Positions 1 to 43,920 of a stretch of 44,545 nt of DNA are shown here, piece after piece. This DNA comes from Escherichia phage 6948. Within the stretch, counting starts at the first letter, position 1, and the number at the start of each line of letters is the position of its first letter. Below the pieces are notes generated by a model. It had not been told where the DNA came from. It worked only from the letters and a program-made list of their open reading frames with translations, and made no database searches. Made by a program: the position numbers and the translations under genes. The stretch lies in sequence record OL362272.1. The stretch is one strand, 5' to 3'.

Positions 1-300
1 TTGAGCGTACACAATAAACATGCAGCTACAGAGGATGAGGTTGGCATTCTGCATGGTGCTATTACCAAAATCTTCAATAAGAAAGCACAGGCAATACTGG
101 ACACTATAGAAGAAGACCCTGATGCAGCATTACATTTAGTGTCTGGTAAGGATATTGGTGCGATGTGTAAGTGGGTTCTTGATAACGGCATTACCGCCAC
201 ACCTGCTGCACAGCAGGAAGAGTCCAAGTTATCTAAGCGCCTCAAGGCTATCCGAGAGGCATCCAGTGGTAAGATAATTCAATTCACTAAGGAGGATTGA
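1..300 (+). CDS. terminase small subunit, 3' portion (5' end lies outside the window)
   Basis: Open frame runs from window start to TGA at 298-300, overlapping the large-terminase ATG (ATGA). Assignment is by position immediately upstream of the large subunit as in T7 gene 18/19; no diagnostic motif recognised. Confidence 0.45.
   Translation: MSVHNKHAATEDEVGILHGAITKIFNKKAQAILDTIEEDPDAALHLVSGKDIGAMCKWVLDNGITATPAAQQEESKLSKRLKAIREASSGKIIQFTKED
92..114 (+). promoter_or_regulatory. phage-RNAP promoter (inside the small-terminase gene)
   Basis: CAATACTGGACACTATAGAAGAA; matches the window consensus ATTTACYGGACACTATAGAAG except at -17 to -14. Confidence 0.5.
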
Positions 301-2198
301 TGGCTAAGGCAAGAGAATCACAAGCGGAGGCTCTTGCCAGATGGGAGATGCTACAGGAGTTACAGCAGACCTTTCCTTACACAGCGGAAGGTTTGCTTCT
401 CTTTGCAGATACAGTTATTCATAACTTAATTGCAGGCAACCCTCATCTGATTCGTATGCAGGCTGATATCTTGAAGTTCCTATTTTACGGACACAAGTAC
501 CGCCTCATCGAAGCGCCTCGTGGTATCGCTAAGACAACACTATCAGCAATCTATACGGTATTCCGTATTATTCATGAACCGCATAAGCGTATCATGGTTG
601 TGTCCCAAAACGCCAAGCGAGCAGAGGAAATCGCAGGTTGGGTAGTTAAAATCTTCCGTGGCTTAGACTTTCTTGAGTTTATGCTGCCGGATATCTACGC
701 TGGGGATCGTGCATCCGTTAAGGCGTTTGAGATTCATTACACCCTACGTGGTAGTGATAAGTCTCCTTCTGTATCTTGTTACTCAATCGAAGCAGGTATG
801 CAGGGTGCTCGTGCTGATATTATTCTAGCGGATGACGTAGAGTCGATGCAGAACGCTCGTACGGCAGCGGGCCGTGCCTTGCTTGAGGAACTGACTAAGG
901 AGTTTGAATCTATCAACCAGTTTGGGGATATCATTTACCTTGGTACACCTCAGAACGTAAACTCTATCTACAACAACCTACCTGCTCGTGGTTACTCTGT
1001 TCGTATCTGGACTGCGCGTTACCCTTCAGTAGAGCAAGAGCAATGTTATGGCGACTTCCTTGCACCTATGATTGTTCAAGATATGAAGGACAACCCAGCA
1101 CTTCGCTCAGGGTACGGGTTGGATGGTAATAGTGGTGCACCTTGTGCCCCTGAAATGTATGATGATGAAGTTCTGATTGAGAAGGAAATCTCTCAGGGTG
1201 CTGCTAAGTTCCAGCTTCAGTTCATGCTTAACACTCGCATGATGGATGCTGACAGATACCCATTACGCCTGAACAATCTAATCTTCACCTCGTTTGGTAC
1301 AGAGGAAGTCCCTGTGATGCCTACGTGGAGTAATGATTCCATAAACATCATTGGTGATGCACCTAAGTATGGTAACAAGCCTACGGATTTCATGTACAGA
1401 CCTGTAGCTCGCCCATATGAATGGGGTGCTGTCTCCCGCAAGATTATGTATATTGACCCTGCGGGTGGCGGTAAGAATGGGGATGAGACGGGTGTGGCCA
1501 TCGTATTCCTGCACGGCACATTCATTTATGTGTATCAGTGCTTTGGTGTACCTGGCGGATACCGAGAATCGTCCCTGAATCGCATTGTGCAGGCCGCAAA
1601 GCAGGCGGGTGTTAAAGAGGTATTCATTGAGAAGAACTTTGGTCATGGCGCGTTTGAGGCGGTAATTAAGCCGTACTTTGAACGAGAGTGGCCTGTAACT
1701 CTGGAAGAAGATTACGCCACCGGACAGAAAGAATTGCGTATCATTGAGACGCTGGAGCCGCTCATGGCAGCCCATAGGCTTATCTTCAATGCAGAGATGG
1801 TGAAGTCAGACTTTGAGTCGGTACAGCACTATCCGCTTGAACTACGCATGTCCTACAGTCTTTTCAATCAAATGTCGAACATAACGATTGAGAAGAACAG
1901 CCTCCGGCACGATGACCGCCTAGACGCCCTGTATGGCGCTATCCGGCAATTAACTTCTCAGATAGACTATGACGAGGTTACACGGATTAATCGCCTCAGA
2001 GCGCAGGAGATGCGAGATTACATCCATGCTATGAACACACCTCATCTACGCAGGGCAATGCTATATGGGGATTACGGTACTGAGCGAAGAGTGACCAACA
2101 CTTCCGTAGCGATGCAGCAGCGAGTTTACGGGCAGAACTACCGAAATAAATCGGCAAGCAGAAATACACTTTCTGCAAGGATTTCAAGGACTTATTAA
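300..2198 (+). CDS. terminase large subunit (DNA maturase B)
   Basis: 632 aa; Walker A-like segment EAPRGIAKTT near the N-terminus, acidic nuclease-type segments (ILADDVES, MYIDPAGGG), size and position typical of T7 gp19-like terminases; RBS GGAGG before ATG 300. Confidence 0.9.
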   Translation: MAKARESQAEALARWEMLQELQQTFPYTAEGLLLFADTVIHNLIAGNPHLIRMQADILKFLFYGHKYRLIEAPRGIAKTTLSAIYTVFRIIHEPHKRIMVVSQNAKRAEEIAGWVVKIFRGLDFLEFMLPDIYAGDRASVKAFEIHYTLRGSDKSPSVSCYSIEAGMQGARADIILADDVESMQNARTAAGRALLEELTKEFESINQFGDIIYLGTPQNVNSIYNNLPARGYSVRIWTARYPSVEQEQCYGDFLAPMIVQDMKDNPALRSGYGLDGNSGAPCAPEMYDDEVLIEKEISQGAAKFQLQFMLNTRMMDADRYPLRLNNLIFTSFGTEEVPVMPTWSNDSINIIGDAPKYGNKPTDFMYRPVARPYEWGAVSRKIMYIDPAGGGKNGDETGVAIVFLHGTFIYVYQCFGVPGGYRESSLNRIVQAAKQAGVKEVFIEKNFGHGAFEAVIKPYFEREWPVTLEEDYATGQKELRIIETLEPLMAAHRLIFNAEMVKSDFESVQHYPLELRMSYSLFNQMSNITIEKNSLRHDDRLDALYGAIRQLTSQIDYDEVTRINRLRAQEMRDYIHAMNTPHLRRAMLYGDYGTERRVTNTSVAMQQRVYGQNYRNKSASRNTLSARISRTY

Positions 2199-2219
2199 TT
2201 ACTGGACACTATAGAAGGA
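2197..2219 (+). promoter_or_regulatory. phage-RNAP promoter after the terminase gene
   Basis: AATTACTGGACACTATAGAAGGA. Confidence 0.7.
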
Positions 2220-2362
2220 AGGCCCAGATAATAAGAGAAATAATAGGTAATATATAGGTTAACCTAGGTTATATAGGTATGCCTTAGTGTGGGTGTACTC
2301 CTGTACACCCTATTCATTACTACCTTACTACCTTACTATATTTACATAATAGGAGAGAGACA

Positions 2363-2641
2363 ATGGCTAATGATTATAGTAGTCAACCATTAACAGGTAA
2401 GTCTAAGAGAAAGCAGGTACAACCTGTAAGTGAAGAACTAATGCTTCCGGTAATCAAAAAAGAGGAAGCTAGTAAGAAAAGCAATGTCATTAATGATGCC
2501 ACCAAATCAGGTAAACAGAAAGGGGCCATGGTGTGCCTTGAAGTGGAAGGTGGTGTATTGAAGATTGCTATCGCGGTTGATGGCAAAGAAGATTCAGAGT
2601 GGAAGTTAGTAACAGTGGAACCAGCTGTTAACCCAGTTTAA
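2363..2641 (+). CDS. hypothetical protein, tandem paralog A
   Basis: 92 aa, RBS AGGAGAGAG upstream; shares the block SGKQKGAMVxLE...IAxA with the next ORF. Confidence 0.5.
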   Translation: MANDYSSQPLTGKSKRKQVQPVSEELMLPVIKKEEASKKSNVINDATKSGKQKGAMVCLEVEGGVLKIAIAVDGKEDSEWKLVTVEPAVNPV

Positions 2642-2659
2642 GATAAGGAGGAAGATTAC

Positions 2660-2950
2660 ATGGCTAAATATGGTACTACAGGTTCTGTTACTGGTCAAGC
2701 TTTTCGAGTAAAAGCAGTACAAACTATTGCAACGGCGATCCCGATGCCTGTTGTTAAAGAAGCAGACCTTAAGAAGAAAGACCACCCTATCAACATCAAA
2801 CATTTATCAGGTAAACAGAAAGGTGCAATGGTTGCTCTTGAGAAAACTGACACAACTCTGCATATTGCTGTTGCACGTGGCAGTGAACCAACAGACCCAT
2901 GGGATGTAACTGGTATGGAAGAGGACGCTGTTACTCCAGCAGGGGAATAA
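2660..2950 (+). CDS. hypothetical protein, tandem paralog B
   Basis: 96 aa, RBS AAGGAGG upstream; shares SGKQKGAMVALE...HIAVA block with 2363-2641. Confidence 0.5.
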   Translation: MAKYGTTGSVTGQAFRVKAVQTIATAIPMPVVKEADLKKKDHPINIKHLSGKQKGAMVALEKTDTTLHIAVARGSEPTDPWDVTGMEEDAVTPAGE

Positions 2951-2952
2951 TA

Positions 2953-3297
2953 ATGCTTAATAAATACTTCAAGCGTAAAGAGTTTGCTTGCCGTTGTGGG
3001 TGCGGTACATCCACTGTTGATGCTGAATTACTACAGGTAGTCACAGATGTGCGTGAGCACTTTGGTTCTCCTGTAGTTATCACTTCGGGTCACCGCTGTG
3101 CTAAGCACAATGCTAATGTAGGAGGAGCTAAGAACTCCATGCATCTTACTGGTAAGGCTGCTGACATTAAGGTGTCTGGTGTTGGCCCAATGGAGGTACG
3201 TGCATACCTCTGCAATAAATACCATGATAAGTACGGTATTGGTGCTTATCCTACTTTTACCCATATCGACGTTAGAGATAACAAAGCAAGATGGTAA
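2953..3297 (+). CDS. endolysin, peptidase M15-type (zinc D-Ala-D-Ala carboxypeptidase / L-Ala-D-Glu peptidase fold)
   Basis: 114 aa from ATG 2953 (MLNKYFKRKEF...); motifs SGHRCxxHN, MHLTGKAADI, FTHIDV match the His/Asp zinc site of M15 peptidases. Confidence 0.8.
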   Translation: MLNKYFKRKEFACRCGCGTSTVDAELLQVVTDVREHFGSPVVITSGHRCAKHNANVGGAKNSMHLTGKAADIKVSGVGPMEVRAYLCNKYHDKYGIGAYPTFTHIDVRDNKARW

Positions 3298-3871: not shown

Positions 3872-3894
3872 ATTTACTGGACACTATAGAAGAG
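3872..3894 (+). promoter_or_regulatory. phage-RNAP promoter upstream of tailspike 1
   Basis: ATTTACTGGACACTATAGAAGAG. Confidence 0.75.
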
Positions 3895-3973
3895 GTAAGA
3901 TAGCGCCGTTCTTTTGAGCGGCCTATTACTAGCCAATCTTCATAGGGAGGGTTGGAAAGTAATAGGAGATAGC

Positions 3974-5872
3974 ATGGCTAAATTAACCAAACCTAATACT
4001 GAAGGAATCTTGCATAAAGGACAATCTTTGTATGAGTACCTTGATGCGAGAGTTTTAACATCAAAGCCGTTTGGTGCTGCAGGTGACGCCACTACTGATG
4101 ATACGGAGGTTATAGCTGCTTCATTAAACTCTCAGAAAGCTGTCACAGTCTCAGACGGTGTATTCTCTAGCTCTGGTATTAATAGTAATTACTGTAACTT
4201 AGACGGCAGGGGTAGTGGCGTGCTAAGTCACCGTTCAAGTACAGGTAACTACTTAGTATTTAACAATCTACGTGCAGGTCGCTTAAGTAATATTACGGTA
4301 GAAAGTAATAAGGCGACTGATACAACTCAGGGACAGCAGGTATCCCTTGCTGGTGGAAGTGATGTTACTGTAAGTGACGTTAACTTCTCAAACGTTAAAG
4401 GTACTGGTTTCAGTTTAATCGCATACCCTAATGATGCGCCACCGGATGGACTTATGATTAAAGGCATTCGAGGTAGCTATTCCGGCTATGCTACTAATAA
4501 GGCAGCCGGATGCGTACTTGCTGACTCCTCAGTTAACTCCCTCATAGATAACGTCATTGCTAAGAACTACCCTCAGTTCGGAGCAGTAGAGTTGAAAGGT
4601 ACAGCCAGTTACAACATAGTCAGTAATGTTATAGGGGCAGATTGCCAGCATGTAACTTACAACGGCACTGAAGGGCCAATAGCTCCTTCTAATAACCTTA
4701 TCAATGGGGTGATGGCTAATAACCCTAAGTATGCAGCGGTTGTTGCAGGCAAAGGGAGTACTAACTTAATCTCAGACGTGCTCGTAGATTACTCAACTTC
4801 TGATGCTAGGCAGGCTCATGGTGTTACCGTAGAGGGATCTGATAACGTCATAAATAATGTGCTTATGTCAGGATGTGATGGTACTAACTCTTTAGGACAA
4901 GGGCAGACTGCTACAATTGCACGCTTTATAGGTACAGCTAATAACAACTATGCGTCTGTATTTCCTAGCTACAGTGCTACAGGTGTTATTACTTTCGAAT
5001 CCGGCTCTACCCGTAACTTCGTAGAGGTAAAGCACCCTGGCAGGAGAAACGACATTCTCAGTTCTGCTAGTACTATTGACGGTGCAGCTACTATTGACGG
5101 CACTAATAATAGTAACGTAGTGCACGCACCTGCCTTAGGGCAGTACATAGGTAGTATGTCAGGTAGGTTCGAATGGCGGATTAAGTCCATGTCACTCCCT
5201 TCAGGTGTTCTTACTTCTGCTGATAAGTACAGAATGCTTGGAGATGGTGCTGTGTCATTAGCTGTAGGTGGGGGCACTTCTTCTCAAGTTCGCCTATTTA
5301 CTTCTGATGGTACTTCTCGGACAGTGTCCATCACCAACGGTAACGTGCGTCTTTCTACCAGTAGCACAGGCTATTTGCAGTTAGGTGCTGATGCAATGAC
5401 CCCAGATAGTACTGGTACATACGCATTAGGTTCCGCCAGTCGAGCATGGTCTGGCGGTTTTACTCAAGCAGCATTCACTGTTACCTCAGATGCTCGGTGT
5501 AAAACAGAACCTCTTACTATCTCAGATGCATTACTAGATGCTTGGTCTGAAGTTGACTTTGTGCAGTTTCAGTATTTGGATCGTGTTGAGGAGAAGGGTG
5601 CAGACTCAGCTAGATGGCACTTCGGTATCATCGCTCAGCGAGCTAAGGATGCCTTCGAACGTCACGGTATAGATGCACATCGCTATGGCTTCTTGTGCTT
5701 CGACAGTTGGGATGATGTATACGAGGAAGATGCCAATGGCTCTCGTAAACTGATTACACCAGCAGGTTCCCGCTACGGTATTCGTTACGAGGAAGCACTG
5801 ATATTAGAGGCTGCGTTGATGCGGCGGACTATTAAGCGTATGCAGGAAGCACTAGCTTCCCTGCCTAAGTAA
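3974..5872 (+). CDS. tailspike 1: beta-helix capsule depolymerase with C-terminal intramolecular chaperone (peptidase S74-like) domain
   Basis: 632 aa from ATG 3974 (RBS AGGAG); Ser/Thr/Gly/Asn-rich beta-helix-like repeats; C-terminus TVTS-DARCK...LDAWSEVDFVQFQYLDR...WHFGIIAQ matches the autoproteolytic chaperone module of endosialidase/K5-lyase-type tailspikes. Confidence 0.85.
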   Translation: MAKLTKPNTEGILHKGQSLYEYLDARVLTSKPFGAAGDATTDDTEVIAASLNSQKAVTVSDGVFSSSGINSNYCNLDGRGSGVLSHRSSTGNYLVFNNLRAGRLSNITVESNKATDTTQGQQVSLAGGSDVTVSDVNFSNVKGTGFSLIAYPNDAPPDGLMIKGIRGSYSGYATNKAAGCVLADSSVNSLIDNVIAKNYPQFGAVELKGTASYNIVSNVIGADCQHVTYNGTEGPIAPSNNLINGVMANNPKYAAVVAGKGSTNLISDVLVDYSTSDARQAHGVTVEGSDNVINNVLMSGCDGTNSLGQGQTATIARFIGTANNNYASVFPSYSATGVITFESGSTRNFVEVKHPGRRNDILSSASTIDGAATIDGTNNSNVVHAPALGQYIGSMSGRFEWRIKSMSLPSGVLTSADKYRMLGDGAVSLAVGGGTSSQVRLFTSDGTSRTVSITNGNVRLSTSSTGYLQLGADAMTPDSTGTYALGSASRAWSGGFTQAAFTVTSDARCKTEPLTISDALLDAWSEVDFVQFQYLDRVEEKGADSARWHFGIIAQRAKDAFERHGIDAHRYGFLCFDSWDDVYEEDANGSRKLITPAGSRYGIRYEEALILEAALMRRTIKRMQEALASLPK

Positions 5873-5878
5873 GCAACA

Positions 5879-5901
5879 GGCAGTGCGTAAGCACTGCTTT
5901 T
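5879..5901 (+). terminator. intrinsic terminator between the tailspike genes
   Basis: Stem GGCAGTGC / GCACTGC(T), GTAA loop, then TTTT. Confidence 0.5.
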
Positions 5902-5958
5902 CACGCAACTTTTTCTTAAAGGTTATCATGGTGGTAGCCTTTCAGAAAAGGAGGTTAC

Positions 5959-7671
5959 ATGCTTCAAAGATTAAGTGCTTACTTGGTGAAGTACAAGAGT
6001 AAACTAACAGGTACTATTGAGCGCCTGCTATCTGATAAACTATCGGATACAATAGATGTTGCGGATTTTGGAGTTACTCCATCTTCCAATGACAACAGGC
6101 AAGCACTTCAAGCTGCGTTCAATGCAGTCAGAGTGTTAGGCGGTGGCACTGTATTAGTCACTAAAGCTGGAAAATACAAACTCAGTGGTACTGTTGAGAT
6201 ATTTGCTAATACACACTTCAAGGTGGCTAAAGGTGTAACATTTGTACGTGACTACGAAACAGGAGATACGCTATTCAGATTATCACAAGGGCAAGCTAGT
6301 AATGTAACAGTCAGTGGAGGTATCTATGAAGGCAATGGTCACACTAAGGGAGATACACCTTTTGTAGTATTTGCATCTACTAGTAATAATGATTTGAAGT
6401 TTGAAGGCATAACAGTTAACAATGTAGTGGACTACCACGCCATAGATTTAGCAGATTGGAACAACGTAGTTATTCGTGATTGTAAATTCCTAGGTTTTAA
6501 GAATACAGGCAGTCGTAACTTCTCAGAGGCTATACAGTTAGACCCAGGTCTTATTACAGTTGGTCACTATGTACAGTCAAGTGGTATGCTGGTGGAGAAT
6601 TGCTATGCTGGTCCAAACACAGAATCAGGGTTTGGAGGTTATGGTGCACTAATTGGAAATCACGCCTCAGCTTACGGTGTACAGGACAACAATATCCGTA
6701 TCTTGAATTGCACTACAGATGGTGCTCTCTTTGCAGGTGTACGTGTATTTAACTGGAAAAACTGGACAGTGCGTGGTTGCACATTTAGGAACTCTAATGC
6801 AAGAGGTGTCCATGTTACACCTGTCTCATCTCAGACTAAACCGCAGGGTACTCGACAAGGTAGTATTGTAGATTGCACTTTTGATGGCGTAAGGACACCA
6901 GTGCTAATTGCTGCACCATCTTGGCCTTTTACCGATATTAGTGACATTTGGCATGACCATATTGAAATTTCTAATAATACTATGATCCTCACAGAGGATG
7001 TATCCTATGGTGTAGATGCAAGGTGGTGTAAGAATTTAATTGTAAAAGGTAATACAGGCTCTGGTGGCTTAGGGTTAATCGGTTTACGCTTTGGGACAAA
7101 ATACCACATCGAAGGTAATACTTGGGAAAACGGAAGAGGTAGTGGGATTTGGTTAGGTGAGTCTGATGCTACTACATTCATTGGTACTGGTTTATCAGGA
7201 GAAGGTATACTTAGTCGTAATATCTTCTCTAAATTAGGGCAATATGGTATTCATGTAAACTGCAAGGCTAGCTGTCTAGTGATTAAAGCCAATAATATGA
7301 AGGAAGTATCTACAGCTGAAGCAGGTAGGCACTTCATTAGTATAGACACAGGGGCTAACAACATCCTAGTAGAAGGTAATATTGGAGTAGACGGAGAAAG
7401 CCCTAACAAGCCAAGCCTTGGTATTCGTGTTACTTCTTCTTGTTCCAATATTAAACTCATTGGCAATGATTGCTATGGCACACAGGCGCCTCAGAATAAC
7501 CAAGGAGTTGGTTCTAGTACGGTGATTGTTTATGGGCTAAATGGCAACCCTACAACTTTAGGCGTAGGTGCACCTGTAGGCTCTTTAGCAACTGATATCA
7601 ATGGTTCTGGTGGTAGTACATTGTACGTTAAAGAATCTGGTACATCTGCTCAAGGTTGGGTTGCAAAGTAG
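5959..7671 (+). CDS. tailspike 2: pectate-lyase-like right-handed beta-helix depolymerase
   Basis: 570 aa, RBS AAAGGAGG; N-terminal DVADFGVTPSSNDNRQALQAAF...GGGTVLV resembles the start of pectate-lyase-3/GH28-like phage depolymerases; repetitive NxxVxG/GN turns. Confidence 0.75.
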   Translation: MLQRLSAYLVKYKSKLTGTIERLLSDKLSDTIDVADFGVTPSSNDNRQALQAAFNAVRVLGGGTVLVTKAGKYKLSGTVEIFANTHFKVAKGVTFVRDYETGDTLFRLSQGQASNVTVSGGIYEGNGHTKGDTPFVVFASTSNNDLKFEGITVNNVVDYHAIDLADWNNVVIRDCKFLGFKNTGSRNFSEAIQLDPGLITVGHYVQSSGMLVENCYAGPNTESGFGGYGALIGNHASAYGVQDNNIRILNCTTDGALFAGVRVFNWKNWTVRGCTFRNSNARGVHVTPVSSQTKPQGTRQGSIVDCTFDGVRTPVLIAAPSWPFTDISDIWHDHIEISNNTMILTEDVSYGVDARWCKNLIVKGNTGSGGLGLIGLRFGTKYHIEGNTWENGRGSGIWLGESDATTFIGTGLSGEGILSRNIFSKLGQYGIHVNCKASCLVIKANNMKEVSTAEAGRHFISIDTGANNILVEGNIGVDGESPNKPSLGIRVTSSCSNIKLIGNDCYGTQAPQNNQGVGSSTVIVYGLNGNPTTLGVGAPVGSLATDINGSGGSTLYVKESGTSAQGWVAK

Positions 7672-7682
7672 TAGGAAGTTGA

Positions 7683-7832
7683 ATGCCATTAATCAAATCA
7701 GTTAAGCAAAGTGCTGTACGCCAGAACACAGAAGAACTTATTCAATCAGGACGTGACCCTAAGCAAGCCTATGCGATTGCCAAGGATGTACAACGTCGTG
7801 CTATGAAGAAACCTTCTGCATCTTCTGCGTAA
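7683..7832 (+). CDS. small hypothetical protein
   Basis: 49 aa basic peptide, RBS AGGAAG upstream; not in ORF track (<60 aa). Confidence 0.3.
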   Translation: MPLIKSVKQSAVRQNTEELIQSGRDPKQAYAIAKDVQRRAMKKPSASSA

Positions 7833-7902
7833 GCAGGTTAATATCTTAGTGTACACAAGGGCAGACCTAGGTTTGCTCTTAGTGTAATCCAAAGGAGGTA
7901 AC

Positions 7903-8031
7903 ATGCTGAAAGATGGTTGGGTTTCATATGACCCTACAGACCCTACGAATTGGCTACAGGTTATCGCTATAGCTTGTGCAGGTAGCCTATTGGCTGCCAT
8001 GATGTATTCATTATGGATGTACACAAAGTAA
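7903..8031 (+). CDS. small hydrophobic protein
   Basis: 42 aa, strong RBS AAAGGAGG 7 nt upstream; one predicted TM helix (LQVIAIACAGSLLAAMMYSLW). Confidence 0.35.
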   Translation: MLKDGWVSYDPTDPTNWLQVIAIACAGSLLAAMMYSLWMYTK

Positions 8032-8680
8032 CCAAAGTCAAAATTTTGATGTAGGCGTGTGTCAGCTCTCTCGCCCTCGCCCTCGCCGGGTTGCCCCCAT
8101 AGGGTGGCCTGAGGGAATCCGTCTTCGACGGGCAGGGCTGATGTACTCCTTGGATAGTACAAGGGGGGGCGGAGGGAACGCCTAGGGAGGCCCAGGAATG
8201 GCTTAGTGGTGGACAAGGTGATTACCTTAGTGAAGCCTCTTAGTGCAGTCCTGAGGCCATTCAGGGCCATTCCTGAGCGTTTGACAGGGTGGGAGGGTGT
8301 GGGCTATCTGTTCGTTTCGTTCACTCCGCTTGCGCTACGTTCACTCGCTCACGTGTACCTTAGGTTATTCCTTGATGGATAGCTTAGGTTAGCCTTAGTG
8401 GACTACCTTAGTTAAAGCCTTAGTGCTTCACTTAGTATCAGCTTAGTAGTGTGCCTTAGTAAGTCTTAGTGTCTTCTCTTAGTGATTGCACATGCAAGCA
8501 TGTAAGATGCCATTAGGTCGCGGTCGGTAGACCGCTAAAGAAGAAGTATAGTAATAAGATGCAGTAGGAGGAACACCAGAAACCTAGCCAACCTAGCCTA
8601 TCCTAGCTCTGTATCTATTGCTTTTCCTTAGTCTAACATGTGAGACAACCTAGATTTATCTTAGTGATGATATCTTAGTG

Positions 8681-14190: not shown

Positions 14191-14213
14191 ATTTACCGGA
14201 CACTATAGGATAG
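14191..14213 (+). promoter_or_regulatory. phage-RNAP promoter downstream of the RNAP gene (first of a tandem pair)
   Basis: ATTTACCGGACACTATAGGATAG. Confidence 0.7.
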
Positions 14214-14773: not shown

Positions 14774-16761
14774 TGGCTATTATTAATAACATCCCGTGCC
14801 CTGCCTGCCAGAAGAATGGGCACGATAAATCAGGCAATCATCTCATGATATTTGATGATGGTGCTGGCTATTGTAACCGTGGTCACTTCCATGATAATGG
14901 GAAGCCCTATTACCATAAGCCAGAGGGTGGTATCGAGATAACCGAATTGCCTATTACTGGCAATATCAAATATACACCTTCTCAATTCAAAGAAATGGAG
15001 AAGGAAGGGAAGATAAGCGACCCTAAGCTACGCGCCATCGCTCTTGGTGGTATGCGTATGAAAGACCGTTGGGAGGTCATGAATGAGCAAGAAAGGGCAG
15101 ACCAAGAAGCAGAGTGGAAACTTGATGTTGAATGGTTCCTCACGCTTAAGCGTAAGAACCTTGTTTCCCGACACATTCGCGGCGACATTTGCGCATTGTA
15201 TGATGTACGTGTCGGACACGATGAAGAGGGTAGAGTCTCGCGGCATTACTATCCACGCTTCGAGAAAGGTGAGCTAGTAGGAGCTAAGTGTCGTACCTTA
15301 CCTAAAGATTTCAAGTTTGGACACTTAGGTAAACTCTTTGGTATGCAAGATCTTTTCGGTATGAATACTTTGTCTCACGTGTTAGACAAGGGGAGACGAA
15401 AGGATTGCTTGCTTATTGTAGGCGGTGAACTTGATGCACTAGCAGCGCAGCAGATGCTCCTTGATTCTGCCAAAGGTACTAAGTGGGAAGGTCAGCCATA
15501 CCATGTATGGTCTGTCAATAAAGGTGAGTCTTGCCTTGAAGAGATAGTGCAAAACCGTGAGCACATAGCCCAATTCAAGAAGATTATATGGGGCTTTGAT
15601 GGCGACGAGGTGGGGCAGAAGCAGAACCAACAAGCTGCTCGCCTGTTTCCTGGCAAATCCTACATCCTCGAATATCCATCTGGTTGCAAAGATGCTAACA
15701 AGGCATTGATGGCTGGCAAGGCTAAAGAGTTTGTAGATGCATGGTTTAATGCCAAGTCATCTGATGAAGTCTTTGGTAGCCAGATTAAATCTATCGCATC
15801 TCAAAGGGATAAGCTCAAGGCTGCACGTCCAGAGCAAGGACTATCATGGCCTTGGCCTAAGCTGAACAAGGTAACGCTAGGTATTCGTAAGAACCAACTT
15901 ATCATTGTAGGCGCAGGCTCTGGTGTAGGTAAGACTGAGTTCCTTCGTGAAGTAGTTAAGCACCTCATTGAAGAACACGGTGAATCTGTAGGCATCATTT
16001 CTACAGAAGACCCGATGGTCAAGGTGTCCCGTGCTTTTATCGGCAAGTGGATTGATAAGCGTATTGAGTTACCGCCAACCAACGACCCGAAAGAAGATGG
16101 ATACCGTGAGGTGTTCGACTACACCGAAGAAGAGGCTAACGCCGCCATTGATTATGTAGCTGATACAGGTAAGCTGTTTGTAGCTGACCTAGAGGGTGAC
16201 TATTCGATGGAAAAGGTAGAGCAAACTTGCCTAGAGTTTGAGGCTATGGGCATTTCTAATATCATCATTGATAACTTAACGGGGATTAAATTAGATGAGC
16301 GTGCTTTTGGTGGGAAGGTTGGTGCACTTGATGAATGCGTCAAGCGGATTGGTACTATCAAAGACCGACACCCGGTTACTATATTCCTTGTATCACACCT
16401 TACACGTCCTCCGGCAAACCGTACCCAACACGAAGAAGGTGGCGAGGTTATCCTTTCTGACTTCCGAGGTTCAGGCGCTATCGGATTCTGGGCATCTTAC
16501 GCCTTGGGGATTGAGCGTAATACAAGAGCTGAAACGCTTGACGAAAGGACTACCACGTACATCTCATGTGTCAAAGACCGCGACCAAGGTATCTGGACTG
16601 GAACCAAGGTCATGCTTAAGGGTGACATTCAAACCGGACGTTTAATGGAACCACAAGCCCGTACTAAGTCATTTGACACCGGCGAAGCAAGGCAACAAGA
16701 AGTACCGGATTTACCGGACACTATAGAAGAGACTAACTTCGATGAAGAAAGTGAGTTCTGA
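14773..16761 (+). CDS. bifunctional DNA primase/helicase (gp4-like)
   Basis: 662 aa; N-terminal zinc ribbon CPACQ...CNRGH, central TOPRIM-like region, Walker A GAGSGVGKT, Walker B IIIDNL; acidic C-terminus ending ...DEESEF. Confidence 0.9.
   Translation: MAIINNIPCPACQKNGHDKSGNHLMIFDDGAGYCNRGHFHDNGKPYYHKPEGGIEITELPITGNIKYTPSQFKEMEKEGKISDPKLRAIALGGMRMKDRWEVMNEQERADQEAEWKLDVEWFLTLKRKNLVSRHIRGDICALYDVRVGHDEEGRVSRHYYPRFEKGELVGAKCRTLPKDFKFGHLGKLFGMQDLFGMNTLSHVLDKGRRKDCLLIVGGELDALAAQQMLLDSAKGTKWEGQPYHVWSVNKGESCLEEIVQNREHIAQFKKIIWGFDGDEVGQKQNQQAARLFPGKSYILEYPSGCKDANKALMAGKAKEFVDAWFNAKSSDEVFGSQIKSIASQRDKLKAARPEQGLSWPWPKLNKVTLGIRKNQLIIVGAGSGVGKTEFLREVVKHLIEEHGESVGIISTEDPMVKVSRAFIGKWIDKRIELPPTNDPKEDGYREVFDYTEEEANAAIDYVADTGKLFVADLEGDYSMEKVEQTCLEFEAMGISNIIIDNLTGIKLDERAFGGKVGALDECVKRIGTIKDRHPVTIFLVSHLTRPPANRTQHEEGGEVILSDFRGSGAIGFWASYALGIERNTRAETLDERTTTYISCVKDRDQGIWTGTKVMLKGDIQTGRLMEPQARTKSFDTGEARQQEVPDLPDTIEETNFDEESEF
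16709..16731 (+). promoter_or_regulatory. phage-RNAP promoter inside the 3' end of the primase/helicase gene
   Basis: ATTTACCGGACACTATAGAAGAG. Confidence 0.7.
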
Positions 16762-21650: not shown

Positions 21651-21672
21651 TTTACCGGACACTATAGAAGGA
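21650..21672 (+). promoter_or_regulatory. phage-RNAP promoter
   Basis: ATTTACCGGACACTATAGAAGGA. Confidence 0.75.
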
Positions 21673-22114: not shown

Positions 22115-22135
22115 TTACTGGACACTATAGAACAA
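22113..22135 (+). promoter_or_regulatory. phage-RNAP promoter upstream of the SSB-like gene
   Basis: AATTACTGGACACTATAGAACAA. Confidence 0.7.
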
Positions 22136-23258: not shown

Positions 23259-23281
23259 ATTTACTGGACACTATAGAAGAG
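23259..23281 (+). promoter_or_regulatory. phage-RNAP promoter upstream of the 123-aa acidic protein
   Basis: ATTTACTGGACACTATAGAAGAG. Confidence 0.75.
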
Positions 23282-25394: not shown

Positions 25395-26394
25395 GCTTCG
25401 CAGCTTGTACAAAGACTCCGAGGTACTTGATGCAATCGAGCAAGCTACCGACGAGAAAGGTAATGTTAATTACAATGAGATGGCACGTGTATTATCGTGT
25501 CACCCTGTGGGTAAGAAGATTACCCGCCAGTTGGCTCGATACTGGCATGGTCAATTCAAGAAGACCAAGAAGAATGGTGATTATTACCAGACCCTTCTGC
25601 AAGAAGATAAGCGTATCAAAGAAGAGCGTAAGCTCAGGACTCCTGACCGCTACGAGGATTTGGCTATTGTTCCATTGCCTGACTCGCCTCATCGAAGTGT
25701 ACTGGTGATACCTGATACTCATGCACCTTATGAGCACCCAGATACCCTAGAGTTCCTTGCAGCCGTGGCAGCACGTTACCGTCCAGACACAGTGGTACAC
25801 CTAGGAGATGAGGCAGACAAACATGCCTTGTCATTCCACGATTCGGACCCAAATCTGGATAGTGCTGGCATGGAGTTAGAGAAGGCTCGTATCTTCATGC
25901 ACAAATTGCACAAGATGTTCCCTGTGATGCGCCTGTGTCACTCCAACCACGGCTCTATGCACTTCCGTAAGGCAAGCGCCAAGGGCATCCCTGTGCAATA
26001 CCTGCGCACCTACCGTGAAGTTTTCTTCCCGCAGGGAGGTGGCGACCAGTGGGATTGGCAACATACGCACGTCCTTGAGTTGCCGAATGGTGAACAAGTG
26101 GCATTCAAGCATCAACCTGCTGGCTCTGTCCTAGCAGATGCAGCGCATGAGCGTATGAACCTTGTGTGTGGTCACTTGCACGGTAAGATGTCTGTGGAGT
26201 ACGCACGTAATACACATGAACAGTATTGGGCTGTGCAAGGTGGCTGCTTAATTGATGAGTCATCCCGTGCATTTGCCTATGGTCGTGAGTCTAAATACAA
26301 GCCAGCATTAGGTTGTGTGGTCATTCTGGAGGGTGTGCCTCACATTGTCCCGATGCAAACCAATAGCGACAACCGTTGGATTGGCAAGATTTAG
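25387..26394 (+). CDS. calcineurin-like metallophosphoesterase
   Basis: 335 aa from TTG 25387 with AGGAGG 7 nt upstream; motifs VIPDTHAPYEH (DxH), HLGDEAD (GDxxD), CHSNHG (GNH). Confidence 0.7.
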   Translation: MGKLRSLYKDSEVLDAIEQATDEKGNVNYNEMARVLSCHPVGKKITRQLARYWHGQFKKTKKNGDYYQTLLQEDKRIKEERKLRTPDRYEDLAIVPLPDSPHRSVLVIPDTHAPYEHPDTLEFLAAVAARYRPDTVVHLGDEADKHALSFHDSDPNLDSAGMELEKARIFMHKLHKMFPVMRLCHSNHGSMHFRKASAKGIPVQYLRTYREVFFPQGGGDQWDWQHTHVLELPNGEQVAFKHQPAGSVLADAAHERMNLVCGHLHGKMSVEYARNTHEQYWAVQGGCLIDESSRAFAYGRESKYKPALGCVVILEGVPHIVPMQTNSDNRWIGKI

Positions 26395-26411
26395 TTGACA
26401 CTATAGAACAA
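26389..26411 (+). promoter_or_regulatory. phage-RNAP promoter (most SP6-like copy)
   Basis: ATTTAGTTGACACTATAGAACAA. Confidence 0.65.
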
Positions 26412-31550: not shown

Positions 31551-31573
31551 ATTTACTGGACACTATAGAAGGG
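31551..31573 (+). promoter_or_regulatory. phage-RNAP promoter upstream of the major capsid gene
   Basis: ATTTACTGGACACTATAGAAGGG, followed by strong RBS. Confidence 0.8.
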
Positions 31574-42700: not shown

Positions 42701-42958
42701 GGCCTAGGTGTTCTACCTTCTGAGTTAGTACAATCCCGTTATGAGGCTGGCTTTCAGACTAAGGGTTTGATAGACCAAATACCACTAGTAGGTGTTGGTC
42801 AAGATGCATATCGTTTAGCAGATTCTATAACTAAATATGCAGAGGGTGATACAGAAGGTGTAGATGTGGCACGTAGGGCTTTACGCTTAGTGCCTCTAAC
42901 TAATGTAATAGGAATCCAGAACGCATTGCGTTATGGCTTAGATGAACTGGAGGATTGA
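39761..42958 (+). CDS. internal virion protein D (large ejection/core protein)
   Basis: 1065 aa; largest structural gene, positioned as T7 gp16. Confidence 0.7.
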   Translation: MEQDIKTNWAGYVQSTPEPFSIEAAPVSAPTIRQRNELQEQVLEAKADADILGAVGAAFQNEWLAFGGKRWYDRATADFTPQPDFEIQPEQREALRFKYGTDMMQTITEGVRSEDELNFRIQNADEDLERNKRIAQAGWVGSVATIGAAVLDPVGWVASIPTGGAAKVGLVGRAVRGAIAAGVSNAAIESVLVQGDMTRDLDDIMVALGSGMAMGGVIGAVARGRATKLSEQGDDRAASIVRSADAGDRYVRAVADDSIGAMRVKGEEVLTEGAFDISSKGEDLLKTLQREGNSIDMTPRRWAGTMSALGTVVHSSHDASVRGLGARLFESPQGLGMQKASASLMQNTNLNRLKSADMNRFNDGFDLWLKENNINPVAGHTNSHYVQQYNEKVWEAVRIGMDESTPKSIRMAAEGQQAMYREALALRKRSGEAGFENIKADSKYMPDIFDTMKARRQFDRIGKDIDKEDIIELFSRAYQNGARKIPKEVADEIARAQVNRVVDATLTGRMSFEKAMSGQTKAEYEAIMRKAGFSDEEIEKMVEALDNKETRDNISNRAKMSLGLDVTQEYNGIRMRDFMNTNVEELTDNYMKEAAGGAALARQGFSTYQAALNAIDLVERNARNAAKDSKASLALDEEIRQMREGLRLIMGKSIDVDPQALSTKMLRRGRDITGVLRLGQMGFAQLGELANFMGEFGIAATTIALGKQFRFTSKALRSGDGFFRDKNLAEVERMVGYIGEDNWLTTKGARPDEFGDVTTVKGMMAHFDQSMNSIRRAQTNLSLFRMAQGSLERMTNRQIALSFIDHLEGKKIIPQKKLEELGLTQEFMTNLQKHYDANSKGSGLLGFDTMPYAMGETLANAIRRKSGLIIQRNFIGDEGIWMNKALGKTFAQLKSFSLVSGEKQFGRGIRHDKIGLAKKTAYGFALGSIVYAAKAYVNSIGREDQDEYLEEKLSPKGLAFGAMGMMSTTAVFSLGGDFLGGLGVLPSELVQSRYEAGFQTKGLIDQIPLVGVGQDAYRLADSITKYAEGDTEGVDVARRALRLVPLTNVIGIQNALRYGLDELED

Positions 42959-43920
42959 TGAGTTATACTTTCACAGAACATATAGCCAACGGTACGCAAG
43001 TAACCTATCCCTTTAGATTTGCTGGCAGGGATAAAGGCTATCTTCGTGCCTCAGATGTGATAGTGGAATCTCTTCAAGGTAACACTTGGATTGAGGTTAC
43101 ATCTGGCTGGCAACTAACTGGCACGCACCAGATTACTTTTGATGTAGCACCAGTTGCAGGTTTGAAGTTCCGTATTCGAAGGGAAGTACAAAAGGAGTAT
43201 CCATACGCTGAGTTTGACCGTGGTGTTACCTTGGATATGAAGTCTTTAAATGGTTCTTTCATTCATATACTGGAGATTACACAGGAGTTACTTGACGGGT
43301 TTTATCCAGAAGGATACTTCATTAAACAGAATGTAAGCTGGGGCGGCAATAAGATTACTGATTTGGCTGATGGCACAAATCCGGGAGATGCAGTAAATAA
43401 AGGGCAGCTTGATGCCATCGACAAGAAGCATACAGATTGGAACGCCAAACAGGACATTGAGATTGCTGGCCTTAAGGCTGGTATGACTTCTGGTATTGCG
43501 CACAGAACTGTTCCTTGGTACACGATAGCCAAAGGTGGTGAGATTTCCGTAAAACCACCTTATGAATTTCAAGATGCACTAGTTTTCCTTAATGGGGTGT
43601 TGCAGCACCAAATTGTAGGCGCATACTCTATAAGCAACAACACTATCACTTTCGCAGAGCCGCTTGTGGCTGGTACAGAGGTGTATGTGCTGATTGGTAG
43701 TCGTGTGGCTACATCTGAACCTAATATTCAGTTAGAGTTGAACTTTGACTTAGTAGAAGGCCAACAAGTAGTACAGATTGGCTCTGCATTTAAGTACATT
43801 GAGGTCTACCTTGATGGATTATTACAACCTAAACTTGCTTATCAGGTAGACGGTGACATTGTTACTTTCTCAGAGGGAGTGCCAGAATGCCGGATGACTG
43901 CTAAGATTATCACAGCATAA
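42958..43920 (+). CDS. tail-fibre adaptor protein (T7 gp17 N-terminal-domain-like)
   Basis: 320 aa; short tail-fibre-like protein lacking a receptor-binding distal domain, consistent with an adaptor that docks separate tailspikes. Confidence 0.65.
   Translation: MSYTFTEHIANGTQVTYPFRFAGRDKGYLRASDVIVESLQGNTWIEVTSGWQLTGTHQITFDVAPVAGLKFRIRREVQKEYPYAEFDRGVTLDMKSLNGSFIHILEITQELLDGFYPEGYFIKQNVSWGGNKITDLADGTNPGDAVNKGQLDAIDKKHTDWNAKQDIEIAGLKAGMTSGIAHRTVPWYTIAKGGEISVKPPYEFQDALVFLNGVLQHQIVGAYSISNNTITFAEPLVAGTEVYVLIGSRVATSEPNIQLELNFDLVEGQQVVQIGSAFKYIEVYLDGLLQPKLAYQVDGDIVTFSEGVPECRMTAKIITA

What the first reader, a model, noticed from the sequence alone, without database searches (positions are those of the whole stretch)
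3974..7671. Two different beta-helix tailspikes at the genome end, docked via a separate adaptor
Tailspike 1 has a beta-helix body plus a C-terminal auto-cleaving chaperone domain (TVTS/DARCK...); the Ser at about 5486 is the predicted cleavage site. Tailspike 2 is a pectate-lyase-like beta-helix without that domain. Together with the short gp17-like adaptor (42958-43920), this is the SP6/K1-5-type arrangement that lets one virion carry two depolymerase specificities. Which glycans they cut cannot be read from sequence.
Basis: partly seen in the sequence, partly recalled or inferred. Interest (0 to 1): 0.5.

Follow-up and report, generated by a model that had tools for sequence, protein, structure and literature searches.

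The report
K1-5-type phage with swapped second tailspike
This is the well-known two-tailspike host-recognition module of K1-5-like coliphages: the first spike is the already solved K5 capsule lyase, and the second is an uncharacterised beta-helix spike that published host-range data suggest targets the E. coli K2 capsule.

Summary
The window is a circularly permuted Vectrevirus (K1-5-like) genome.

- **Tailspike 1 (3974-5872):** 624/632 residues identical to K1-5 gp46, the K5 lyase KflA (PDB 2X3H). It carries a Peptidase_S74 chaperone domain. The Ser505 codon is exactly 5486-5488, in the motif T|SDARCK.
- **Adaptor (42958-43920):** 316/320 identical to K1-5 gp37.

So the SP6/K1-5 reading holds. 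The claim that the glycans cannot be read from sequence is half wrong, because spike 1 cuts K5 heparosan.

For spike 2 there is no biochemistry. Two phage groups in the Gaborieau collection share it as their only common receptor-binding protein. One group was isolated on a K2 strain. The other lyses 7 of 8 non-O6 K2 strains, against about 30 of 372 other strains. I read it as a K2-capsule tailspike with confidence about 0.6.

At least 17 GenBank phages carry this same gene pair. Verdict: an ordinary new member of a known system, with one useful lead.

The parts
3873..3895 (+). SP6/K1-5-type phage RNA polymerase promoter (ATTTACTGGACACTATAGAAGAG) in front of the tailspike genes
   Evidence: Sequence read. 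The core ACTGGACACTATAGAAG occurs 10 times on the + strand against 0.09 expected; one copy is at 3876-3892.
3974..5872 (+). Tailspike 1 = K5 lyase (KflA / K1-5 gp46), 632 aa precursor
   Evidence: 624/632 identical to K1-5 gp46, annotated 'K5 lyase'. PDB 2X3H 'K5 LYASE' covers residues 1-505 with E = 0. phrog_14895 matches full length.
3974..3994 (+). N-terminal docking heptapeptide MAKLTKP
   Evidence: Translation. The peptide is named as the gp37-binding element of K1-5 gp46 in PMC6872550. In PDB 9VVR the lyase body from residue 31 onward is fused to a different N-terminal part of about 240 residues.
5486..5488 (+). Ser505 codon (TCA): predicted catalytic and scissile serine of the self-cleaving chaperone; Lys510 lies five residues later
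   Evidence: DNA read. The Pfam S74 hit starts at residue 505. The same Thr|Ser...Lys(+5) arrangement is described for T5 pb1, Thr1263-Ser1264 with Lys1269 (PMC4690869).
5486..5869 (+). C-terminal intramolecular chaperone domain (Peptidase_S74), residues 505-632, predicted to be released after trimer folding
   Evidence: PF13884, 53.3 bits. Solved chaperone domains 3GUD and 3GW6 align to this stretch.
5876..5897 (+). GC-rich hairpin (GCAGTGC-GTAA-GCACTGC, then TTTT) just after the tailspike 1 stop: possible partial terminator
   Evidence: Sequence. The scan finds the stem at 5880-5897. Phage LL11 annotates a terminator at the equivalent place. No phage promoter lies between the two tailspike genes.
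5959..7671 (+). Tailspike 2, 570 aa: LL11-type right-handed beta-helix tailspike, probable K2-capsule specificity
5959..5991 (+). N-terminal docking undecapeptide MLQRLSAYLVK
   Evidence: 7 of 11 identical to the K1-5 gp47 peptide MIQRLGSSLVK (PMC6872550). The first 39 residues are conserved in 103 phage records that carry different spike bodies.
6013..7666 (+). Exchanged cassette: the tailspike 2 body that replaces the K1-5 endosialidase body
   Evidence: K1-5 DNA aligns up to window 6012 and resumes at 7666. Beyond about residue 38 the proteins are unrelated.
42958..43920 (+). Adaptor (K1-5 gp37 orthologue), 320 aa: T7 gp17-like N-terminal tail-binding domain and no receptor-binding domain
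   Evidence: 316/320 identical to K1-5 gp37. PF03906 at residues 3-153. PDB 7Y22 'tail adaptor protein', E = 1.8e-81.
8071..8306 (.). Collapsed direct terminal repeat, marking the physical genome ends
   Evidence: The K1-5 right end maps to 8306 and its left end to 8071.

Best explanation
This is the receptor-recognition module of a K1-5-like podophage (genus Vectrevirus).

By analogy with K1-5, a short adaptor protein (gp37 orthologue, 42958-43920) binds the tail through its T7 gp17-like N-terminus. It offers two docking sites. Tailspike 1 docks through its first seven residues (MAKLTKP) and tailspike 2 through its first eleven (MLQRLSAYLVK). Each of the six tail positions therefore carries both spikes.

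Tailspike 1 is the K5 lyase KflA. It is a trimeric single-stranded beta-helix that cleaves K5 heparosan by beta-elimination. Its C-terminal 128 residues are an intramolecular chaperone that drives trimer folding and then cuts itself off at Thr504|Ser505, with Ser505 activated by Lys510.

Tailspike 2 is a cassette that replaces the K1-5 endosialidase. It is a beta-helix of the PfbA-like family and has a conserved His/acid centre (H160, D163, E190, Q193, D195, H235). It most likely recognises, and probably degrades, the E. coli K2 capsule. If so, the virion has K5 plus K2 tropism instead of K5 plus K1.

Both genes are transcribed from the phage promoter at 3873-3895. Tailspike 2 is reached by read-through of a hairpin.

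Shown here: the sequence identities, domains, motifs, fold and gene order. Inferred: assembly on the virion (from K1-5), self-cleavage (from homologues), the K2 target (from host-range correlation) and catalysis by tailspike 2. Confidence in the architecture and the identity of tailspike 1 is about 0.95. Confidence in the K2 assignment is about 0.6.
For: **Genome identity.** The window matches Vectrevirus records at 96-99%.

**Adaptor.** 316/320 identical to K1-5 gp37. It matches the solved 'tail adaptor protein' 7Y22 at E = 1.8e-81.

**Tailspike 1.** 624/632 identical to K1-5 K5 lyase. It matches PDB 2X3H. The S74 domain and the T|SDARCK motif are present, with the mechanism described for T5 pb1 and K1F (PMC4690869).

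**Docking peptides.** They are as published for K1-5 (PMC6872550). The tailspike 2 N-terminus is conserved in 103 phages with unrelated spike bodies.

**Cassette boundaries.** Window 6012 and 7666.

**K2 inference.**
- LI10_P3 and LI10_P5 (K5 lyase plus this tailspike 2 at 99%) were isolated on strain LI10, typed O25:H4, capsule K2.
- The T147 Vectreviruses share only tailspike 2 with them. Their first spike is different. It is related to the fibre of phiEB49, a phage that needs the O6 antigen.
- These T147 phages lyse LI10 (scores 3,1,2,1) and ECOR-66, typed O4:K2 (3,4,0,4). They also lyse five more non-O6 K2 strains weakly.
- Vectreviruses without tailspike 2 (T205, PDP21, DIJ06, T145, AL505 phages) score 0 on the 8 non-O6 K2 strains.
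- Overall, 7 of 8 non-O6 K2 strains are lysed against about 30 of 372 non-O6 non-K2 strains (Fisher p = 3.6e-7).
- A further phage carrying the same gene pair, KMB47, lists the K2 strain CFT073 as its host.
Against: - No biochemical test exists for tailspike 2. The K2 link is a correlation in one data set.
- Five of the seven positive K2 strains score only 1, meaning lysis at the highest titre. One K2 strain (NILS75) is not lysed at all.
- The same phages also give scores of 1-2 on several K5 and K7 strains although they lack K5 lyase. Low scores are therefore not specific.
- The matrix columns for the LI10 phages themselves were truncated in the stored file and I could not read them.
- The K types in that study are genotype calls, not serology.
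- The tailspike 2 gene of KMB47 carries a 55-nt insertion that breaks the frame in the deposited record. Its K2 host is therefore weak support.
- The nearest solved relative, PfbA, showed no enzymatic activity.
- A 48%-identical homologue sits in P22-like prophages, and phages of that type usually target O-antigens (my own knowledge). It is found in 24 complete E. coli genomes, three of them titled O25b:H4-ST131.
Confidence: 0.78

Rival explanations
1. Tailspike 2 targets a surface glycan other than K2, for example an O-antigen such as O25b or another group 2 capsule. On this view the K2 correlation reflects shared lineage or general permissiveness of the lysed strains.
For: The closest non-Vectrevirus relatives with full-length similarity sit on P22-type head-binding domains in prophages. 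That prophage gene is found in 24 complete E. coli genomes, three of them titled O25b:H4-ST131, and P22-like spikes usually cut O-antigens (my own knowledge). LI10 itself is O25:H4 ST131. Two O25:H4 strains typed as capsule cluster '5' also score 0,1,0,1. Most K2 scores are only 1.
Against: The lysed K2 strains carry O25, O4, O1, O75, O107 and O-negative types and belong to five or more sequence types. O25 strains without a K2 locus are not lysed: ECOR-52, ECOR-54, LM33 and NILS19 all score 0. The prophage homologue is only 48% identical, a distance at which I would not assume the same specificity.
Confidence: 0.2
2. Tailspike 2 binds its glycan but does not cleave it. It would be an adhesin-type spike, like its structural relative PfbA, and the phage would pass the capsule by other means.
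For: The nearest solved structure, PfbA, has the same conserved centre. Its authors found no lyase or hydrolase activity and no obvious catalytic machinery.
Against: In tailspike 2 and its phage relatives, the positions that are Gln296 and Glu333 in PfbA are acidic (D163, D195), next to invariant H160, E190 and H235. These are kept from Bacillus, Streptomyces and Mammaliicoccus phages through to coliphages, which looks like an active site. From my own knowledge, most characterised beta-helix tailspikes that act on capsules are enzymes.
Confidence: 0.12
3. The two spikes do not widen host range. Instead they act one after the other on a single host, with one stripping the capsule and the other cutting the O-antigen beneath it.
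For: Capsule can mask the O-antigen: in CFT073 the K2 capsule hinders O6-dependent phages (PMC12488582). Sister phages from strain T147 (O6:K5) combine an O6-family spike with tailspike 2.
Against: If tailspike 2 is K2-specific, the two targets (K5 and K2) are alternative group 2 capsules, and each strain in the table carries a single ABC capsule type. K1-5 itself plates on K1 and on K5 strains separately (PMC6872550). Phages with K5 lyase and unrelated second spikes infect K5 strains of many O types.
Confidence: 0.07

Closest known systems
Escherichia phage K1-5 gp37 / gp46 / gp47 (adaptor, K5 lyase, K1 endosialidase); also K1E and Salmonella phage SP6
   Same: Same genus, gene order and phage promoter. 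Adaptor 99% and K5 lyase 99% identical. Same N-terminal docking peptides. Both tailspike genes lie next to the right terminal repeat.
   Different: The body of the second spike is a 570-aa beta-helix rather than an 811-aa beta-propeller endosialidase. It has no self-cleaving chaperone domain. The predicted tropism is K5 plus K2 rather than K5 plus K1.
Escherichia phages LL11, EEc2, Sem1-3, 6949, EC120, vB_EcoP-101101UKE1 and LI10_P3/P5 (Vectrevirus)
   Same: The same pair of tailspike genes at 96-99% DNA identity. EEc2 tailspike 2 is 100% identical in protein.
   Different: Essentially nothing in this module. LL11 has an extra HNH endonuclease gene downstream. In these records the second spike is annotated only as 'tail spike protein' or 'hypothetical protein'.
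KflA, K5 lyase of coliphage K5A (PDB 2X3H), and the gp17-fused form in PDB 9VVR
   Same: Tailspike 1 residues 1-505 match 2X3H at E = 0. The lyase body plus chaperone match 9VVR from residue 31.
   Different: In 9VVR, and in Kayfunavirus records at 92-94% identity, the same lyase body is fused to a different N-terminal part of about 240 residues instead of the 7-residue docking peptide.
PfbA of Streptococcus pneumoniae (PDB 3ZPP, 4MR0) and tailspikes of Gram-positive phages (SPO1 gp18.3, Karezi pre-neck appendage, phiSASD1 gp39)
   Different: Only 21-29% identical, and over the first half of the helix only for most phage hits. They have different N- and C-terminal modules and different hosts. 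PfbA has no demonstrated enzyme activity.

Membership tests
K1-5/SP6-type adaptor-mediated dual tailspike system | Short adaptor of about 300 aa with a T7 gp17-like N-terminal tail-binding domain and no receptor-binding domain | tested here: met
   320 aa; PF03906 at residues 3-153; 316/320 identical to K1-5 gp37; matches the solved 'tail adaptor protein' 7Y22.
K1-5/SP6-type adaptor-mediated dual tailspike system | First spike starts with the conserved heptapeptide MAKLTKP | tested here: met
   Exact match at 3974-3994. The peptide is as given in PMC6872550.
K1-5/SP6-type adaptor-mediated dual tailspike system | Second spike starts with the conserved undecapeptide (MIQRLGSSLVK in K1-5) | tested here: met
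   MLQRLSAYLVK, 7 of 11 identical. The N-terminal 39 residues find 103 phage records, including the K1E and K1-5-type endosialidases.
K1-5/SP6-type adaptor-mediated dual tailspike system | Both spikes physically present on each adaptor of the virion | not testable with these tools
   Known for K1-5 from cryo-EM, as summarised in PMC6872550. Here it is inferred from 99% identity of the adaptor.
K5 lyase (KflA) | Sequence identity with the characterised, crystallised enzyme over the whole beta-helix lyase body | tested here: met
   E = 0 to 2X3H over residues 1-505. 99% identical to K1-5 gp46 and 98% to the phage K5 record Y10025 'K5 lyase'.
K5 lyase (KflA) | Beta-eliminative cleavage of K5 heparosan | not testable with these tools
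   Requires an enzyme assay. Eight substitutions separate this protein from K1-5 gp46.
Peptidase S74 intramolecular chaperone (CIMCD) | Pfam PF13884 above the gathering score at the C-terminus | tested here: met
   53.3 bits against a cut-off of 22, residues 505-565. Absent from tailspike 2.
Peptidase S74 intramolecular chaperone (CIMCD) | Catalytic Ser with Lys five residues downstream, preceded by Thr | tested here: met
   T504-S505-D-A-R-C-K510. This matches T5 pb1 T1263-S1264...K1269 (PMC4690869).
Peptidase S74 intramolecular chaperone (CIMCD) | Actual self-cleavage and release of the domain | not testable with these tools
   The 2X3H chain ends at residue 505, which is consistent with maturation there. 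Cleavage was not shown for this protein.
Pectate lyase-like enzymes (Pfam PF12708) | Match to the family profile | tested here: not met
   Tailspike 2 hits only PF13229 and PF05048 at E <= 0.01. More distant relatives (P0009-P0016, SPO1 gp18.3, Karezi) do hit PF12708.
Pectate lyase-like enzymes (Pfam PF12708) | Right-handed parallel beta-helix fold | tested here: met
Pectate lyase-like enzymes (Pfam PF12708) | Lyase catalytic machinery (metal site plus Arg/Lys base) and a uronic-acid substrate | tested here: inconclusive
   The conserved centre is His plus acidic residues. The top structural neighbours mix hydrolases, lyases and epimerases. If the target is K2, which has no uronic acid by my own knowledge, beta-elimination of the pectate-lyase type would not apply.
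PfbA-like beta-helix family | Significant sequence and structure similarity, including the conserved groove centre (PfbA H293, Q296, Q331, E333, H377) | tested here: met

The most novel reading that the evidence does not exclude
Tailspike 2 would be the first identified depolymerase for the E. coli K2 capsule, a galactosyl-glycerol-phosphate 'teichoic acid-like' polymer. It would belong to a PfbA-like beta-helix family whose other phage members sit on phages of Bacillus, Staphylococcus/Mammaliicoccus, Streptomyces and Arthrobacter. On this reading the family is a teichoic-acid-directed enzyme class that crossed into coliphages, with the conserved His/Asp/Glu centre cutting the polymer, possibly at the phosphodiester bond rather than a glycosidic bond.
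Probability: 0.25. Interest if true: 0.6.

Novelty: new member of a known kind. Interest (0 to 1): 0.3.

Why it matters
The module itself is textbook K1-5 biology and already sits in at least 17 public phage genomes, so it changes nothing conceptually.

The useful part is the lead on the second spike. K2 is one of the capsules of extra-intestinal pathogenic E. coli, including the reference strain CFT073 and some ST131 strains. A recent list of E. coli capsules with known phage depolymerases does not include K2 (PMC12488582).

If tailspike 2 is confirmed as K2-specific, it would give three things:
- a typing and therapeutic reagent for K2 strains;
- an explanation for the host range of a whole group of Vectreviruses;
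- a first function for the PfbA-like beta-helix family.

Tried and rejected
1. **KMB47 host as proof of K2 specificity: downgraded.** Its host is CFT073 (K2), but the record has a 55-nt insertion near the 5' end of tailspike 2 that splits the gene.

2. **Tailspike 2 = O6-antigen spike: considered seriously, then rejected.** Phages from strain T147 lyse many O6 strains, including uncapsulated ones. But the T147 Vectreviruses do not carry K5 lyase. They carry a different first spike. It is 43% identical to the fibre of the O6-restricted Kayfunavirus T147_P5 and 32% identical to phiEB49 gp24, and phiEB49 needs the O6 antigen. That spike accounts for the O6 set.

3. **Tailspike 2 = O25 spike: rejected.** O25 strains without a K2 locus score 0.

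4. **DNA search for tailspike 2 in 5,426 complete E. coli genomes:** no match.

5. **Literature searches** for LL11, KMB47, EEc2, Sem1, LI10_P3, 9VVR and 7Y22 found no paper on this protein.

6. **'Glycerophosphoryl diester phosphodiesterase' annotation** on the Mammaliicoccus phage homologue: Pfam finds no such domain, so I do not use it as evidence.

7. **Fold comparison** cannot separate hydrolase from lyase. The neighbours include both, plus epimerases.

8. **LI10-phage columns of the interaction matrix** were truncated in the stored file.


Full report
**What the window is.** The 3.8 kb around the finding matches 101 phage records. Seventeen of them match over the full length at 96-99% identity, all K1-5-like podophages of the genus Vectrevirus: EEc2, LI10P3, Sem1-3, 6949, LL11 and others. 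K1-5 itself matches only the first 56% of the query, that is tailspike 1 and the first 54 bases of tailspike 2. The window is a circularly permuted complete genome. The K1-5 right end maps to window 8306 and its left end to 8071, so the direct terminal repeat is collapsed at 8071-8306.

**Tailspike 1 (3974-5872).**
- The 632-aa product is 624/632 identical to K1-5 gp46, annotated K5 lyase.
- It matches the crystal structure of K5 lyase KflA (2X3H) at E = 0 over residues 1-505.
- Pfam places Peptidase_S74 ('chaperone of endosialidase') at residues 505-565, 53.3 bits against a cut-off of 22. The isolated chaperone domains of phi29-type and K1F proteins (3GUD, 3GW6) align to the same stretch.
- Reading the DNA, codon 505 is TCA at 5486-5488 within V-T-S-D-A-R-C-K. 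This is the Thr|Ser...Lys(+5) arrangement described for T5 pb1, where the Thr1263-Ser1264 bond is cut and Ser1264 is activated by Lys1269, and for K1F (PMC4690869).
Cleavage itself remains inferred.

**The substrate of tailspike 1 can be read from the sequence.** By near-identity with the characterised enzyme, it is K5 heparosan.

**The N-terminus is a separate module.** In the solved spike 9VVR the same lyase body from residue 31 onward is attached to a different N-terminal part of about 240 residues. Kayfunavirus records at 92-94% identity also carry the body. Here the N-terminus is only the heptapeptide MAKLTKP, which the literature names as the gp37-binding element of K1-5 gp46 (PMC6872550).

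**The adaptor (42958-43920).** It is 316/320 identical to K1-5 gp37. It has the T7 tail-fibre N-terminal domain at residues 3-153. It matches a solved 'tail adaptor protein' (7Y22) at E = 1.8e-81.

**Tailspike 2 (5959-7671): what it is.**
- It occupies the place of the K1-5 endosialidase gp47.
- It is similar to gp47 only over the first 38 or so residues. These comprise the docking undecapeptide (MLQRLSAYLVK against MIQRLGSSLVK) followed by a ...DKL..D....DFG stretch that the homologues on other anchors also have just before the helix.
- Those 39 residues recur in 103 phage records whose spike bodies differ: endosialidases, 'pectate lyase' proteins, and Klebsiella and Edwardsiella phage spikes.
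- K1-5 DNA homology stops at window 6012 and resumes at 7666. The body is therefore a clean cassette exchange.

**Tailspike 2: fold.**
- Pfam finds only Beta_helix and NosD. There is no S74 domain and no PF12708 hit.
- An AlphaFold2 model built on nine homologues has pLDDT 82 and pTM 0.86 and is almost entirely beta strands.
- The fold claim is confirmed. 'Pectate-lyase-like' is true only as a fold label.

**Tailspike 2: family.**
- At 45-51% identity the same body sits on P22-type head-binding domains and on CBA120/G7C-type N-termini, in prophages and metagenomic phage contigs.
- One such gene is the gp9-position spike of a P22-like prophage. It is present in 24 complete E. coli genomes, three of them titled O25b:H4-ST131.
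- Beyond enterobacteria, the detectable relatives are spikes of Gram-positive phages: SPO1 gp18.3, Bacillus pumilus siphophages, the Karezi pre-neck appendage, and Streptomyces, Arthrobacter and Mammaliicoccus phages.
- A small set of residues is kept across all of them: H160, an acidic residue at 163, E190, Q193, D195 (Ser in the Mammaliicoccus phage protein) and H235.
- In the PfbA alignment these positions fall on H293, Q296, Q331, E333 and H377. That is the conserved 'putative active centre' described for PfbA, for which no activity could be shown (PMC3718772).
- I read this as a probable active site. That is inference.

**What tailspike 2 probably recognises.** No paper I could find characterises it. 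The supplementary tables of Gaborieau et al. (bioRxiv 10.1101/2023.11.22.567924) allow an indirect test, because two groups of their Vectreviruses carry this protein.

- **LI10 phages.** LI10_P3 and LI10_P5 carry K5 lyase plus tailspike 2 (98-99% identical). They were isolated on strain LI10, typed ST131 O25:H4 with a K2 capsule locus. K5 lyase cannot explain growth on that host.
- **T147 phages.** T147_P1, P7, P9 and P10 carry tailspike 2 (97% identical) but not K5 lyase. Their first spike is a different 630-aa protein that starts MARLTRP.
- **The T147 first spike explains the O6 strains.** It is 43% identical to the fibre of Kayfunavirus T147_P5 and 32% identical to gp24 of phiEB49. phiEB49 needs the O6 antigen (PMC12488582). 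T147_P5 and the T147 Vectreviruses both lyse O6 strains: T147, ECOR-10, ECOR-43_A, ECOR-56, IAI57, IAI75, IAI82, 536, AN17 and LF31.
- **What remains is specific to the tailspike 2 carriers, and it is K2.** Scores are in the order P1, P10, P7, P9:

| Strain | Type | Scores |
|---|---|---|
| LI10 | O25:K2 | 3,1,2,1 |
| ECOR-66 | O4:K2 | 3,4,0,4 |
| ECOR-46 | K2 | 0,1,0,1 |
| IAI67 | K2 | 0,1,0,1 |
| NILS42 | K2 | 0,1,0,1 |
| NILS58 | K2 | 0,1,0,1 |
| NILS73 | K2 | 0,1,0,1 |
| NILS75 | K2 | 0,0,0,0 |

- **Controls.** Vectreviruses lacking tailspike 2 (T205_P4/5, PDP21 phages, DIJ06_P1, T145_P2, AL505_P3) score 0 on all eight non-O6 K2 strains. T147_P5 scores 0, or 1 on ECOR-66.
- **Counts.** Among non-O6 strains, 7 of 8 K2 strains are lysed against about 30 of 372 others (Fisher p = 3.6e-7). 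For scores of 3 or more it is 2 of 8 against 1 of 372, and that one is the rough laboratory strain BL21.

**Caveats on the K2 inference.**
- Most K2 scores are 1.
- The same phages give scores of 1-2 on some K5 and K7 strains.
- The K types are genotype calls.
- I could not see the LI10-phage columns, because the file is truncated.
- The extra clue from phage KMB47 (host CFT073, K2) is weakened by a frame-breaking 55-nt insertion in its tailspike 2 gene.

I put the K2 assignment at about 0.6.

**A more novel reading.** K2 was described as 'a teichoic acid-like polymer' (Jann et al. 1980, cited in PMC13171606). The family's other phage members infect Gram-positive hosts. I have not tested whether those spikes act on teichoic acids. 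The match is suggestive and is the basis of the novel case. It is not evidence of mechanism.

**Expression.** An SP6/K1-5-type promoter lies at 3873-3895, one of ten copies of the core motif against 0.09 expected. No such promoter lies between the two spike genes. A GC hairpin followed by TTTT sits at 5876-5897, where LL11 annotates a terminator. Tailspike 2 is therefore probably made by read-through. Whether the hairpin sets the ratio of the two proteins is speculation.

**Verdict.**
- The first spike is a known, solved enzyme.
- The second is a known but uncharacterised gene present in about 20 deposited genomes.
- The arrangement is a new member of a known kind and of low surprise.
- The one thing worth following is that the second spike is probably the missing K2-capsule tailspike, from a beta-helix family with no assigned activity.

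Noticed in passing
window 96-112, 2201-2217, 3876-3892, 14195-14211, 16713-16729, 21654-21670, 22117-22133, 23263-23279, 26393-26409, 31555-31571: Ten + strand copies of the SP6/K1-5-type phage promoter core ACTGGACACTATAGAAG with 0-3 mismatches, against 0.09 expected by chance. They give a promoter map of the whole genome.
   Followed up: partly
window 8071-8306: The left and right ends of K1-5 overlap here, so the direct terminal repeat of about 236 bp has been collapsed by a circular assembly. The 174-aa minus-strand ORF at 7746-8270 runs through this end region and is probably spurious.
   Followed up: partly
L008 (OZ035733.1, Vectrevirus T147P9) 1136-3028: Sister phages from strain T147 carry a different first spike in the same slot. 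It is 630 aa with docking peptide MARLTRP. It is 43% identical to the fibre of Kayfunavirus T147P5 and 32% to phiEB49 gp24, and phiEB49 needs the O6 antigen. Both slots of the adaptor are therefore exchanged independently in nature.
   Followed up: partly
L006 (OR424385.1, phage vB-Eco-KMB47) about 2585-2640: A 55-nt insertion that partly repeats neighbouring sequence near the 5' end of tailspike 2 breaks the reading frame. The record annotates two fragments. It could be an assembly error or a real inactivation.
   Followed up: partly
window 7849-8069 versus L002 (LL11) 5449-5981: LL11 has an HNH endonuclease gene downstream of tailspike 2 that this genome lacks.
   Followed up: no
window 2363-2641 and 2660-2950: Two adjacent small ORFs (92 and 96 aa) look like paralogues: both contain ...SGKQKGAMV.LE......L.IA.A.... 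They lie where K1-5 has gp41 and gp42. LL11 labels the equivalent genes 'acetyl-CoA acetyltransferase; most likely a duplication region'. That product name looks unfounded for proteins this small.
   Followed up: no
Gaborieau interaction matrix, column T147_P1: T147_P1, but not its sisters P7, P9 and P10, gives weak scores (1-2) on many K1 strains (ECOR-36, IAI35, 38, 39, 46, 59, 65, 69 and others). It is not among the phages described as carrying an endosialidase, and I did not check its genome for one. This could be cross-contamination with a K1 phage or a real minor activity.
   Followed up: no
L011 (OP913465.1, Mammaliicoccus phage PMS2) 1043-3844: A 933-aa virion protein annotated 'glycerophosphoryl diester phosphodiesterase' contains the tailspike 2-like beta-helix region. 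Pfam finds no phosphodiesterase domain in it at E <= 0.001.
   Followed up: partly
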